Shown: positions 4,123-58,931 of the stretch, in pieces
How the letters are laid out: each line of letters opens with the position of its first letter
Position numbering within the stretch: position 1 is the stretch's first letter
DNA from: Chrysomallon squamiferum
Lineage: Eukaryota; Animalia; Mollusca
Direction of reading: 5' to 3'
Length of the DNA: 64,000 bases
NCBI GenBank assembly: GCA_012295275.1
Contig: CM022679.1
Coordinates: 13,578,001 to 13,642,000, forward strand
Program-made: the position numbers and the translations under genes
The notes under the pieces: generated by a model
Told to the model about the DNA's origin: nothing
The model's input: the letters and a program-made list of their open reading frames with translations, nothing else
Databases searched by the model: none

Positions 4123-4288
4123 ATGACACATGGAACAACGTTTAGATGTGGCCTCAACTATGTATGTGATGAGATAGAACAGTATTGTGTACCTGAAGAC
4201 AACAAGTGCTATTACTGCAAAGACATCAGTGATTTGTGCTTCACAACACGTTTGAATTTCCCTAAACAGTGTACTCGTTTCTGTAAAG
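4123..4288 (+). CDS. TNFR-like receptor copy A, Cys-rich-domain exon
   Basis: Acceptor ttttattttcag ends at 4111, ATG at 4123, donor G|gtagg at 4289. MTHGTTFRCGLNYVCDEIEQYCVPEDNKCYYCKDISDLCFTTRLNFPKQCTRFCK; 8 Cys; phase 1. Confidence 0.85.
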
Positions 4289-5429
4289 GTAGGTAGATGT
4301 GTATGTATGTATGTGAGTTTGTGTGTGTGTGTATGTTTAGTTGTATGTATGTGTGTGTGTGTAGTTGTGTGTATGTCTGTGTATGTGTCCTTTGTCTGTT
4401 AGTATCCACATGAATGTTTTTGAATATTTATGCATGAGTATGTGTATAAAGGTTTCTAATAAAAAATATTTTTGCTCTATGTATGTATTTCACAGATTAT
4501 ATTTGTATTTTGGTTTTGTTTCAGCTTTCCTTTATAATCAGACAAAGACAGGTAAAGCTTTGTATTATTACAGCCAAAAACTTATAAATGTTTGTGTGTG
4601 TATATCTAAGATTGTGTGTGTGTGTTTGTGTGTGTCTATATAGCTACATATGTTTATGTGGATATATGTGTGTATGAATGCATATATGTATGTACGTTTG
4701 TGTGTGTGTGTGTGTGTTTAAGAATTAAAAAACAGATTTTCTAATTTAATCTCAGCGGATTCAAGTTGACTTAAAGTTGATCATGTAATGTATATTATAG
4801 GGTGCTTTGGTCCTTTGGCTATATATTTGTGTATGAGAGAGAGAGAGTGTGTGTGTGTGTGTGTGTGTGTTTATTAGTTATAAAGGTTTCTAATTAAAAA
4901 TATTTTTTTGCTATTTGTATGTTTTAAAATGTTTCTATAAAGCAGGTCTTTCTAGGCTAAATGATACTATATTTTATAACAGTACTGTAACATTTTTATT
5001 ATGTGTCTCGTTATTTGATAAATAAATAAATAAATAAGTAAATAAATAAATAAACAGAAAAACAATCAAATAAACAAATGAATAAATAAACTCACAGATC
5101 TTCACAAAATTACAGCTACAACTTTTGTGTTTTTGATCTCATTTTATACACAGTAACAACTTTTCTCTGTGTTTATTTCACCAGATTATATTTATTATTT
5201 GCTTTTGTTTCAGATTTCGTTGGCAATCAAATAACAGAAAGTAAGGCTTATTATTACTACAGTCATGAAATAATAAATGCTTGTGTATGCATATCTGTGC
5301 GTATGTGTATGTATGTATGTATGCATGCACATACGTATGTGTATTTGTATGTACGCATGCACGTATGTATGTGTATTTGTATGTATTATGTATGTTTGTA
5401 TGTATGTATATAAGTATGTATATATGTAG

Positions 5430-5624
5430 TTTAGGATTTTTAATATTCAGTGTCTTATGTACGTCTGAATAGACTTTGCACATAGACAATATTCGGGAAC
5501 GCACTGGTACAATCTCGACCTCACAAACCCCGTCAGATGCCGCTGACGAGACTCGAACTTATGACATCCATTCGCTCGCACTCCGAATGCTGACGATGTT
5601 ACCGTTCGGCAATCAAACAACCCT
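5430..5624 (-). mobile_element. tRNA-derived SINE (family 2) in an intron of copy A
   Basis: Same A/B-box head and body as 3646-3833. Confidence 0.7.
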
Positions 5625-6057
5625 GTATATATGAGGATATATGAATGCATGTATGTATGTATGTATGTATGTATGTATGTATGTATGTATGTATGTATGT
5701 ATGTATGTATGTATGTATGTATGTATGCATTTATGTATGTATATATGTATATATGTATTACGGCAGTGTTTGTGTATGTATGTTTGTATGTCTGCTTGTA
5801 TATATGTTTTTGTGATTATTTATATATGTATAGTATGAATGCGTGCGTGTGGATGTGTATGTATGAATGTATGTATATAGTTTATGGCAGTCAAAGTGTA
5901 TATGTGTTTGTGTGTGTGTATATATGTATTTGTGTGTATATATGTGTGTATGTATGTATATGTACAAAGGGAGCAGTCGAGTTTGCTTGATAAAAATGGA
6001 TAAATTTATAGTTTTTTCTAAAGGTGATGTTACAAAGTTACTTTGATTGTATTTCAG

Positions 6058-6329
6058 ATCTTCCACAGAATAACGAGGTCCTTTATACAGCACTTTTCAT
6101 AGCATGTCTAATAGCACTAGTAGTATTATCAGCTGCAGCTGTACTGGTTTTCCTAAAACGGAGAAGACTGAGTAAGAACAAACATGAACACGATGTTGAA
6201 AAAGTTGAAGAACAAACACACAGACACACACACACACACACACACACACATACACACACACACACACATGTACACCATACACATACAAACACACACACAC
6301 AATACTGCACATGTTTCAGTTCAGATTAA
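6058..6329 (+). CDS. TNFR-like copy A, transmembrane exon (normal donor deleted; reads into (CA)n, or ends at cryptic donor 6171)
   Basis: Acceptor atttcag ends at 6057. DLPQNNEVLYTALFIACLIALVVLSAAAVLVFLKRRRL: hydrophobic helix plus basic stop-transfer, in frame with the CRD exon. Confidence 0.75.
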
Positions 6330-55191: not shown

Positions 55192-56979
55192 GTAGGTAGA
55201 TGTGTATGTATGTATGTGTTTGTGTTTGTGTTTGTGTTTAGTTGTATGTATGTGTGTGTGTGTAGTTGTGTGTATGTCTGTGTGTAAGTTCGAATGTGTG
55301 TATGTGTCCTTTTTGTGTTAGTATCCGCATGTATGTTTTTGAATATTTGTGCATGAATGTTTTAAAGGTTTTTCTGTTAAAAATATTTTTGCTATTTGTA
55401 TGTTTTTTAAAATGTTTCTATAAACAAACAGTCTTTCTAGGCTAGATGATACTATATTTTATAACACTACTGTCACAATTTTTTATGTGTTTTATTATTT
55501 GACAAATAAATAAATAAATAAACAGATAAAACCAGAAAAAAACAAATAAACAAACAAATAAATAAATAAATAAATTTGTTTGTATCTTTGTGTGTAAACA
55601 TGTGATACATGTATGTATGCATGTTTACAAGTTTTTATTTTTAATCTCATTTTTATGTGTAATATGTATTTTTTCTATGTATGTCTGTGTGTTATATTTG
55701 TTTTTAAAATTCCACACTCCTGGAAAATCAAACATTTTAATTTTATGTTTAGGGATTTTATTGATTTAAATTTGATCAAAAAATTATATAATGTTTTTGT
55801 ATATATCATCTATATATATGTTGATGTGTGTGTGTGTTTATGTGTTTTATATATGTTATAAAGTTTATGTGGATATATGTATTTATATTTATGTGTGTAT
55901 GTATGTGTATGTATGTATATATATATGTATGTGTGTATCTAGGTATATTTGTGTGTGTATGTGTGTGTGTTTAAGAATTAAAAAACTCAGTGGCACAGTA
56001 ATGTTTTTATTAAAAACAAATTATTTTCTAATTTTATCTCTAGGGATTTAAGTTGATTTAGAGTTGACCACTGTAATGTATATTACAGTGTGCTTTGGTC
56101 ATTTGACTATATATTTATGCACGAGTATGCGTGTGTGCGTGTGTGTGTGTTGTATTAGTTATAAAATATCTAATATTTGTATGTTTTAAAATGTTTCTAG
56201 GCTAGATGATGCTTTATTTTATAACATTACTATAACATTTTTTTATTATGTCTTTCTATTTGCGAAATAAATAAATAAATAAATAAATAAATAAATAAAC
56301 AGACAAATAAATACATAAATAAATAAATAAATAAATAGACACAGATTTTCACATAATTACAGCTTTTGTGTATTTTATCTCAATTTACAATCAGAGAAAG
56401 GTAAATGTTATTATTATTACAGCGAGAAAATAATAAACATTTGTATCTTTGTGTGTGTGTGTGCGCGCGTGTGACTGAATATATGTATTTGTCATTGTTT
56501 GTATATCAGGATATATATGTATGTATGTATGTATGTTTGTATGTATTATGGCAGTGTATATATATGTATGTTTGTAGGTATGTGTATTTGTATATATGTT
56601 GCTGTGTTTATGTATTTATGTATGTATGTTTGTATATATATGTATGTATGTATGTGTGTATATTTTACATTTTGGGTTATAACATTTTGGGTTTTGGTTT
56701 CATTTTGTACAGAGTAACAACTTTTTTTGTGCTTATTTTATCAGATTATATTTGTCTTTGTTTTTGTTTCAGTATTCCTTGGTAATCAGATAACGAAAGG
56801 TAAGGCTTATTATTATTAGAGCTATAAAATAATAAATGTTTTGTGTGTATATCTGTGTATCAATGTATGTTTATGTGGATAATGTATGTACGTATGTATG
56901 TAGTTTGCTTGATAAAAATGGCTAAATTTATACTTTTTTCTAAAGGTGATGTTACAAAGTTACTTTGATTGTATTTCAG

Positions 56980-57168
56980 ATCTTCCACAACATAACGAAA
57001 TCCTTTATATAGCACTTGTCATAGCATGTCTAATAGCAGTAGTAGTATTATCAGCTGCAGCTGTACTGGTTTTCCTAAAATGGAGAAGACTGAGTAAGAA
57101 CAAACATGAACACGATGTTGAAAAAGTTGAAGAACAAACAGAACTAATGAAAAAAGAAAAAACAGCAG
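56980..57168 (+). CDS. TNFR-like copy D, transmembrane exon
   Basis: atttcag|...CAG|gtgagt, 189 nt, phase 1-1. DLPQHNEILYIALVIACLIAVVVLSAAAVLVFLKWRRL...EKTA. Confidence 0.88.
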
Positions 57169-58554
57169 GTGAGTTATACATCTATTTTTCCAGTTATCAA
57201 AGTCTGAAAACACACTTACACACACACACCCGCACAAACACATACACACAGACACACAACACTGCATATGTTTCAATTCAGATTAATTTTCAGTTCTGTC
57301 AAAAATACATAAATTTGTTTTTACGTGCCAGTCAATAGTCTAAATGCACTGTGTATTCTTTCAATATTTTATTTGTTTCTTCTAACCACTTTTTGCTAAT
57401 AATAAAGAATGGATGCTGTTGTTGCAGAAGTAACATACGAACTCTGACATCTCCTTGCTTTCTAAATGTCTGTATGACTGGATATCTACCTGTGTGTGTG
57501 TGTGTGTGTGTGGAGAGAGATATATATTGCGACGTTATGAAAATGATTGTGTCTATTTATAAGATTTCCCAAATGTTTGAGTCTATTGTATGATTTCCTA
57601 TTACTCACTTTTTGTATTTAAATGTATGCAATGAATGTTGCTGCTTTTTTATTACCAGTTGTAGTCTGTCATTGTTTGACTGTGACAGGCATCGTTGAAA
57701 AATAGCTTGATCCTATTAGCATGTTAATTTTTTCACTCTCTCACTCACTCATGCATGCATCGCTCACTGTCTCATCCATTCACTTAGTCACTTGCTCATG
57801 CATATATATATACACACATGTACAGATACATACATTAATGCACGAAATAATAATTATTTAATCGTATTGGTCTTATCCATACAAACAACCTTTAAAGTAT
57901 GAGTCAATGCTAATTTGGATATAGCCAAATCGTTTTCTGACAACTTATAACAAATCAGTCCTCGTCAAACAAAATGATGTCATCATCACTGATGCAAATA
58001 AAGAGCGAAAATTACAATACTCATCCAGTTTCTTGATGTTACATTTTTACTGTCATACTTTATCATTAGCAAAGACTAGTTGTCACTTATTTAAAAAAAA
58101 AAAAAAAAATGCATTTTTACCATTTGTTCATACTGTCAAAGAAGAGGTCTACATTAAGGTCAAATTGAAGATCATTATTGTTAATTTGAACAAACAAAAT
58201 TTGTTTGTGTAAAATGTTTTCTTTAATGTCTTGCTGTGTCGTTGCAGTAACAGCATTAATTTTTGTTCAGTTTATAACAACTTCTGACTTAAGCTATTAC
58301 GTGTTTTTCAGAGTAATTATGGCAATAATATTAATGCCGTCTAAAAATTTGTAGATGAAATATAATTTGTATATGTTGTACATTGAAAAAGAAATTTCTG
58401 AGTAGTAGATTTATATATTTTTAACAATGCTTATTTCATTTTCTTTTTTATTATTGTATTTATTATTTGTTTGTTTGCTTTTTTGTTTTTTCTCATGGAG
58501 TTATATTAAGTGACTAATAAAAGATATGAGTATATTCAGTTTTAATTTTTCTAG

Positions 58555-58931
58555 AGAACAAGATCGTATTGCAGAACGTGTGTGCTGAATCACAGATAGA
58601 GGCAGGAGATGGAGCTGGGGACACAGATAAAACAACTTTGTGTCAGGCAGTTTCCAACGGGGATATCCACAGCAGCAGTGATGCAAAAGAAGGAGAGGAT
58701 GTCGATGCTAATAGAAGTTCTAGAAGTGTGTTGTATCAGGTAATAAGTGAAACATATCAAGATCATCCTGTTTCCAGAAACAGAAAAAGAAACACTGATG
58801 ATGATACAGTGATTATCATACATAATAAGAACAAATGTATTCCAATTGGATCTGATCATCATATTGAACTGAAACCAGTCATTCGAGCCGAAGATAAAGA
58901 GAACGGAGTAAAGACTGAAAAACTTCATTAA
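58555..58931 (+). CDS. TNFR-like copy D, full terminal cytoplasmic exon (spliced protein 242 aa)
   Basis: Acceptor tttttctag, phase 1, open to TAA; 163+189+377 = 729 nt in frame. Confidence 0.82.

What the first reader, a model, noticed from the sequence alone, without database searches (positions are those of the whole stretch)
4123..58931. Tandem array of single-CRD TNF-receptor-like (Grindelwald/TACI-type) genes hidden from the ORF track
Seen: four + strand paralogues, each CRD exon + TM exon + cytoplasmic exon joined by canonical phase-1 introns; copy D splices to an open 242-aa protein. The Cys pattern is C-x4/5-C-x6-C-x6-C-x2-C-x6-C-x10-C-x3-C with an EQY motif. Knowledge: Drosophila Grindelwald has a single 8-Cys domain of similar spacing, and TACI/BCMA CRDs have EQY/EY...CxxC...CxxxC and no death domain. 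Inference: a lineage-specific expanded TNFR-like immune/stress receptor cluster in a probable mollusc, continuing beyond the window.
Basis: partly seen in the sequence, partly recalled or inferred. Interest (0 to 1): 0.85.

Follow-up and report, generated by a model that had tools for sequence, protein, structure and literature searches.

The report
Snail Grindelwald-like TNF receptor array
Four tandem snail genes carry a small cysteine-rich outer domain predicted to fold like the fly TNF receptor Grindelwald; only one copy is fully intact, two have lost the splice site that leads to their inner tail and would be decoys or decaying copies, and tiny extra exons likely vary the stalk length.

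Summary
The array is real but less uniform than reported. Four + strand copies (A–D) carry a cysteine-rich exon. Only D has all three canonical exons and splices to an open 242-aa frame. A and C lost the donor of the transmembrane exon, C also lost one cysteine, and B needs a new acceptor (186 aa, with a TRAF6-type motif). A matching 9-aa cassette separates two annotated isoforms in Gigantopelta aegis. Relatives are unnamed proteins of Gigantopelta, abalone and mussel. Two predicted models rank Grindelwald, BCMA and TACI first in all four fold searches, but every score is below significance. No signal peptide was found, so topology is probably type III like BCMA. Ligand binding and splicing were not tested. 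Grindelwald-like receptors and their expansions in molluscs and annelids are already described in a preprint, and this scan noted similar genes in a clam and an annelid. Verdict: a new member of a known kind, a birth-and-death cluster that may pair signalling and tail-less copies.

The parts
3406..3635 (+). Conserved upstream block of copy A (candidate promoter or 5' UTR exon)
   Evidence: nhmmer finds it only upstream of A, C and D, not B; alignment
4112..4288 (+). Copy A CRD exon, ATG 4123, 8 Cys, phase-1 donor
4525..4551 (+). Copy A stalk microexon 1 (27 nt, phase 1-1, encodes an N-glycosylation sequon)
5214..5240 (+). Copy A stalk microexon 2 (27 nt)
6058..6329 (+). Copy A TM exon with donor deleted; frame reads through a CA repeat to a stop at 6329 (163-aa model)
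8232..8395 (+). Copy A truncated last-exon remnant, acceptor intact (53 codons)
17133..17306 (+). Copy B CRD exon, ATG 17144, 8 Cys
17577..17597 (+). Copy B stalk microexon 1 (21 nt, sequon)
18285..18311 (+). Copy B stalk microexon 2 (27 nt, sequon)
18738..18926 (+). Copy B TM exon, intact acceptor and donor
20115..20275 (+). Copy B shortened last exon behind a predicted new acceptor; gives a 186-aa model with the TRAF6-type motif PIEDKE
34242..34469 (+). Conserved upstream block of copy C
34587..34757 (+). Copy C CRD exon, ATG 34598, only 7 Cys (seventh lost)
36649..36890 (+). Copy C first TM exon, donor deleted, read-through stop at 36890 (133-aa model)
37050..37076 (+). Copy C microexon (27 nt) between the two TM exons
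37853..38316 (+). Copy C second TM exon (internal duplicate), donor deleted
39278..39498 (+). Copy C truncated last-exon remnant
53975..54205 (+). Conserved upstream block of copy D
55010..55191 (+). Copy D CRD exon, ATG 55029, 8 Cys; 8-bp duplication creates an upstream out-of-frame ATG at 55021
56773..56799 (+). Copy D stalk microexon (27 nt)
56980..57168 (+). Copy D TM exon, intact
58555..58931 (+). Copy D last exon, acidic cytoplasmic tail, no Pfam domain; 242 aa without and 251 aa with the microexon

Best explanation
This is a young tandem cluster of four gastropod genes whose single cysteine-rich outer domain is predicted to fold like Grindelwald/BCMA/TACI and which likely act as TNF receptors, with copies being gained and damaged by unequal crossing-over. 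Shown by the sequence: the exon layout, the duplications, the mosaic copy C, the shared donor deletion in A and C, and the microexons. Inferred mechanism: translation starts at the Met eight residues before the first cysteine, with no signal peptide. The single TM helix would insert the protein N-terminus-out (type III). Three CRDs would bind the grooves of a trimeric TNF ligand through the beta-hairpin tip, as Grindelwald binds Eiger. Clustering of the unstructured, death-domain-free tails would recruit TRAF adaptors for JNK/NF-kB signalling. D (full tail) and B (short tail with a TRAF6-type motif) are the likely signalling copies. A and C would make membrane proteins without the ancestral tail, acting as decoys if expressed and as decaying pseudogenes if not. 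Optional 7-9-residue microexons, three of which carry a glycosylation sequon, would tune stalk length and glycosylation.
For: Cys spacing x4-x6-x6-x2 equals Grindelwald's first five cysteines, and an invariant Tyr aligns to its core Phe46 (PMC8024323 section 7). Models of D (pLDDT 78) and of the G. aegis relative (74) show strands followed by helices. Foldseek over 350,542 chains ranks Grindelwald first both times; all rows shown above rank 17 and rank 20 are Grindelwald, BCMA or TACI. VIA-align gives 5 of 48,161 chains at Z>=2, the top four being BCMA, BCMA, Grindelwald and TACI in both runs. Atlas features for the relative P0001 give Fn14, TACI, BCMA, BAFF-R and mollusc clusters. All full-length relatives examined (10 of 10) have one CRD-proximal TM helix; the Gigantopelta and mussel ones lack a hydrophobic N-terminus, the abalone ones have one. 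G. aegis isoforms X1 and X2 differ by exactly 9 aa right after the CRD. Microexon pattern: 6 on +, 0 on -, shuffle mean 0.55, maximum 3 in 60 shuffles; all six lie in introns that make up 12% of the window. B's tail keeps its frame to a homologous stop through compensating indels in the alignment with D.
Against: No fold score is significant (Foldseek E 0.95 and 0.22, TM 0.42-0.53, Grindelwald rmsd 4.6 A; VIA Z 3.0-4.0). No window CRD hits a TNFR Pfam family; 1 of 10 CRDs hits TACI-CRD2, at E=0.041. Atlas scores are under 0.9, and the D domain alone gave no hit. D, the only clean copy, has no TRAF motif of the three patterns scanned and carries an upstream out-of-frame ATG. Purifying selection is weak: CRD A-D pN/pS about 0.43 on 9 differences, C versus the others about 1, TM A-C above 1. 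TRAF-type motifs are not consistently kept among relatives.
Confidence: 0.72

Rival explanations
1. The whole cluster is mostly decaying: one ancestral Grindelwald-like gene was amplified by segmental duplication, and A, C and perhaps B and D are pseudogenes without a present role.
For: Each copy has a lesion: donor loss (A, C), cysteine loss (C), acceptor and upstream-block loss (B), upstream ATG and no TRAF motif (D). pN/pS is near 1 for C and for TM exons. Transposon remnants lie between copies.
Against: All four CRD exons, five TM segments and six microexons are open, and their acceptors are intact. The A-D CRD exons are 96% identical against 79-92% in the two non-coding stretches measured. 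G. aegis has an annotated short-tailed paralogue beside a long-tailed one on a contig of the same length.
Confidence: 0.15
2. The proteins are a mollusc family of small cysteine-rich membrane proteins that share the hairpin-plus-helices fold with TNF receptors but bind something else (for example a microbial or symbiont molecule) or nothing.
For: Fold scores are low, there is no TNFR Pfam hit, and TRAF motifs are not conserved. Abalone relatives add a long coiled-coil stalk unlike Grindelwald.
Against: The same three receptor families lead four fold searches and the Atlas search. The hairpin tip of the G. aegis relative P0002 repeats Grindelwald's Thr51-Glu52-Arg53 ligand-contact residues.
Confidence: 0.1
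3. A and D are two alleles of one locus placed in tandem by the assembly, so the true array is smaller.
For: A's flanks match D's at 90-98% over kilobases; no genome or reads were available to check depth.
Against: A and D differ by a donor deletion, microexon number and a last-exon deletion, and one intron is only 79% identical. A shares its donor deletion with C, not with D.
Confidence: 0.03

Closest known systems
Drosophila Grindelwald (Grnd; PDB 6ZSY, 6ZT0; PMC8024323)
   Same: One 8-Cys CRD, same spacing over the first five cysteines, core aromatic residue, predicted hairpin plus helices, one TM, no death domain.
   Different: Spacing Cys5-Cys6 is x6, not x3. No signal peptide found. A, B and D lack the sequon after Cys6 that C and 9 of 17 relatives keep. 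Multi-copy, with stalk microexons and tail-less copies. Ligand unknown.
grnd-like single-CRD receptors of invertebrates (bioRxiv 10.1101/2024.07.27.603686)
   Same: Single CRD near a TM. Homologues are reported in oyster and scallop, with up to 12 paralogues in one annelid species.
   Different: That paper filters for type-I topology. The parts read do not mention Gigantopelta, microexons or tail-less paralogues. Its homologue tables were not seen and may list abalone, mussel or snail members.
BCMA / TACI / BAFF-R (TNFRSF17, 13B, 13C)
   Same: Best structural overlay (BCMA rmsd 1.7-2.1 A over 35 residues). Type III topology without signal peptide (PMC13420781 passages). No death domain.
   Different: No Asp-x-Leu hairpin motif; eight cysteines; weak or no Pfam hit. 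The shared lack of a signal peptide may be convergent.
Unnamed relatives: G. aegis LOC121379917 and LOC121378842; Haliotis rufescens LOC124114663-665; Mytilus proteins
   Same: 39-54% CRD identity and the same cysteine framework. Three abalone paralogues have consecutive gene numbers on one contig.
   Different: Abalone members have a signal peptide and a coiled-coil stalk; tails are unrelated between genera.
Human TRAIL receptor cluster DR4/DR5/DcR1/DcR2 (recalled, not from a call)
   Same: Tandem TNF receptor paralogues in which some copies lost the signalling tail.
   Different: Multi-CRD death receptors; an analogy of organisation only.

Membership tests
grnd-like single-CRD TNF receptors | Single CRD with eight cysteines in X2+C2-type spacing | tested here: met
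   A, B, D have 8 Cys (x4/5,6,6,2,6,10,3); C has 7 and fails. Grnd spacing and PMC8024323 section 7.
grnd-like single-CRD TNF receptors | Beta-hairpin followed by helix-loop-helix; closest solved folds are Grnd/BCMA/TACI | tested here: inconclusive
   Top ranks in 4 of 4 searches, but E 0.2-1, TM 0.42-0.53, Z 3-4.
grnd-like single-CRD TNF receptors | Core aromatic residue (Grnd Phe46) before the third cysteine | tested here: met
   Invariant Tyr in 10 of 10 CRDs, aligned to that Phe.
grnd-like single-CRD TNF receptors | One TM helix within about 120 aa of the CRD, no death domain | tested here: met
   TM at residues 76-94 of D; tails of D and B give no Pfam hit.
grnd-like single-CRD TNF receptors | Disulfide connectivity as in Grnd | not testable with these tools
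   Model coordinates are not returned.
grnd-like single-CRD TNF receptors | Binds a trimeric TNF ligand 3:3 | not testable with these tools
grnd-like single-CRD TNF receptors | Cytoplasmic TRAF-binding site | tested here: inconclusive
   PxExx[FYWHDE] (PMC9597381 abstract) is present in B's predicted tail and absent in D; short motifs arise by chance.
Grindelwald orthologue (type I) | N-terminal signal peptide | tested here: not met
   No shared signal-peptide exon upstream (heuristic scan); Gigantopelta and mussel relatives lack a hydrophobic N-terminus. A distant exon cannot be excluded.
TACI/BCMA/BAFF-R subgroup | Asp-x-Leu motif at the hairpin tip | tested here: not met
   Absent between Cys3 and Cys4 in all 10 aligned CRDs; motif from PMC8024323 section 7.
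TACI/BCMA/BAFF-R subgroup | Type III topology without signal peptide | tested here: inconclusive
   Consistent; no transcript 5' end was seen.
Classical multi-CRD TNFR / death receptors | Repeated TNFR_c6 domains or a death domain | tested here: not met
   One CRD per copy; no such Pfam hit.

The most novel reading that the evidence does not exclude
A working paired-receptor cluster in a probable vent snail: signal-peptide-free, Grindelwald-type TNF receptors in which B and D signal, A and C serve as tail-less decoys made by one splice-donor deletion, and alternatively spliced 21/27-nt microexons set the length and glycosylation of the stalk and thus ligand sensitivity. This would be an invertebrate counterpart of the TRAIL receptor/decoy cluster with a microexon dial, echoed by long- and short-tailed paralogues and a 9-aa cassette in Gigantopelta.
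Probability: 0.25. Interest if true: 0.65.

Novelty: new member of a known kind. Interest (0 to 1): 0.4.

Why it matters
These genes escape Pfam and are annotated as 'uncharacterized' in snails, abalone and mussels, so mollusc TNF-receptor counts probably miss them. The cluster offers four close natural variants of one ligand-binding domain, with and without tails, for pairing with the many mollusc TNF ligands. If the missing signal peptide holds, the type III topology known from BCMA, TACI and BAFF-R also occurs in molluscs, next to type I relatives in abalone.

Tried and rejected
No genome is held for this window, so copies beyond it and TNF ligands could not be sought. Sequencing-run search: no RNA holder listed. 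The single-sequence homologue search with D's CRD found nothing, nor did the Atlas. PDB sequence searches with the 4-copy and full-length profiles gave only chance hits (antibodies, sodium-channel beta subunit). Metagenome contigs: 0 of 233 pattern matches confirmed. The weak DUF4318 and COP1 RING hits are rejected as cysteine-pattern noise below cut-off. Three signal-peptide-like exon candidates upstream of D and four upstream of C are not shared between copies and were rejected. The CRD tree (21 rows, 52 columns) groups A, B and D weakly and leaves C on a long branch; it is too short to order events. AATAAA after A's read-through stop is not evidence, since it occurs 3.7 times per kb here. 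Literature searches that found no report of these genes or of microexons in such receptors.
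Full report
Observation. Six-frame scanning finds four + strand exons with EQY and a cysteine framework. The exact 8-Cys pattern occurs in A, B and D and in none of 20 shuffles. C has seven cysteines: it lacks the seventh, which in Grindelwald's nested C2 module pairs with the sixth (PMC8024323 section 7). The other copies do not follow that plan. A and both TM exons of C share a deletion of the TM-exon donor and read through CA repeats to stops at 6329, 36890 and 38316. 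Their last exons keep the acceptor but are truncated. B keeps the donor but lost the 5' part of the last exon; an AAG at 20114 offers an in-frame acceptor giving 186 aa, and the remaining exon aligns to D's 3' part with indels that restore the frame.

History of the array. Self-comparison shows A's surroundings repeated about 51 kb downstream around D (1-3893 at 92%; 8862-11520 at 90%; 11431-12097 at 98%, reaching base 64000), so a further copy beyond the window is plausible but unseen. C is a mosaic: its CRD exon is 75% identical to D's, part of the next intron is 97% identical to D's, and a 3' intron stretch is 95% identical to A's. This fits unequal crossing-over or gene conversion. A conserved upstream block precedes A, C and D but not B. 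Substitution counts are small and give only weak signs of purifying selection.

Microexons. A motif scan found six 21/27-nt frame-preserving exons with polypyrimidine-AG acceptors and GTAA donors, all on the + strand and all in introns before a TM exon. A profile search confirms these six at E<=8e-9, with the next hit at 0.02; the profile was built from five of the six. Shuffles give 0.55 on average and at most 3 in 60. Three encode an N-glycosylation sequon. G. aegis isoforms X1 and X2 differ by a 9-aa insert at this position, and two mussel models lack a 28-aa stalk that others have. The first suggests alternative splicing in a relative; the second may only reflect missed exons. No RNA from this species was examined.

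Relatives. A profile search of 1.84 billion representatives gave 5 hits at E<=0.001: G. aegis (2), Haliotis rubra (1) and two unnamed records. Further searches gave 13 of 979 and 10 of 31 candidates, from Gigantopelta, Haliotis, Mytilus and unnamed records; all named ones are 'uncharacterized' or 'hypothetical'. G. aegis is a peltospirid gastropod, and at 46-54% CRD identity the window is probably a related snail. Abalone members have a hydrophobic N-terminus and a coiled-coil stalk. Gigantopelta and mussel members have a Met 8-12 residues before the first cysteine and no hydrophobic N-terminus, though some models add 10-19 residues. In the window the Met is invariant, no shared signal exon was found, and D's 8-bp duplication would frameshift any phase-1 upstream coding exon. 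Type III topology, as in BCMA (PMC13420781 passages), is therefore the likelier reading.

Fold. The 10-sequence profile hits Grindelwald third of five at E=4. AlphaFold models of D (pLDDT 78) and of P0002 (74) have four short strands followed by helical segments. Foldseek ranks Grindelwald first for both (E 0.95 and 0.22), followed by TACI and BCMA chains, with no match at E<=0.001. VIA-align lists 5 of 48,161 chains at Z>=2, led by BCMA (Z 4.0, rmsd 1.8, 35 aligned), Grindelwald (Z 3.1, rmsd 2.7, 40 aligned) and TACI, and the same set for the relative. The Atlas gives Fn14, TACI, BCMA, BAFF-R and two mollusc clusters, all under 0.9. Each result is weak, and the two models share most of their alignment, but no other family competes. 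Against: no TNFR Pfam hit for window domains and a 4.6 A Foldseek rmsd to Grindelwald.

Mechanism. By analogy with the Eiger:Grindelwald complex, where each CRD contacts two protomers through the hairpin tip and the helix loop (PMC8024323 section 8 part 1 of 2), B and D would bind a TNF trimer and signal through TRAF adaptors. B's tail has the TRAF6 pattern PxExx[FYWHDE] (PMC9597381, abstract start in the listing); D has Arg in place of that Pro and no other scanned motif. A and C would lack the ancestral tail. All binding and signalling steps are inferred.

Comparison with what is known. The preprint 10.1101/2024.07.27.603686 (abstract, passages, first halves of Results and Methods) reports 115 grnd homologues, including oyster and scallop members and 12 paralogues in one annelid species. 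Its supplementary tables were not seen and may include members of this family. Passages of 10.1101/2021.12.26.474206 add nothing on these genes. This scan earlier noted a Grindelwald-like tandem pair in a clam and a CRD-exon duplication in an annelid; I did not test those. The finding is therefore a new member of a known kind. Its distinctive points are the probable lack of a signal peptide, the stalk microexons and the tail-less copies; searches found no report of these. The TRAIL-cluster analogy is recalled, not from a call. Interest 0.4.

Noticed in passing
window 45560-45388 (- strand): Single-copy first coding exon of a prolyl 4-hydroxylase alpha subunit (ATG, signal-peptide-like stretch, P4Ha_N E=0.00085, GT donor). 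No further exon was found among 64 ORFs scanned, so copies A-C may lie antisense inside a >45-kb intron of that gene, or the exon is an orphan.
   Followed up: partly
window 55021-55032: The 8-bp duplication before D's start makes a three-codon upstream frame whose stop overlaps the main ATG; it could lower translation of the only clean copy.
   Followed up: partly
window 14943-15458, 33822-34058, 6736-7056: Transposon-like remnants: a hAT dimerisation fragment (E=0.00037); the other two look transposase-like by recall only, with no Pfam hit.
   Followed up: partly
window about 3730-3820, 5520-5620, 36140-36240, 37290-37400, 54320-54410: A short interspersed repeat sits in or before several copies and could help order the duplications.
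   Followed up: no
P0008 (Haliotis rubra): A 568-aa model holds two CRD-coiled-coil-TM units in tandem, probably two neighbouring paralogues fused by annotation.
   Followed up: no
P0001/P0006/P0007 and P0002 (G. aegis): A 17-residue-tail paralogue and a 235-residue-tail paralogue lie on contigs of identical length, echoing the long- and short-tail copies here.
   Followed up: partly
window 63103-63423: Short 77-bp tandem repeat at 97% identity inside the duplicated segment.
   Followed up: no
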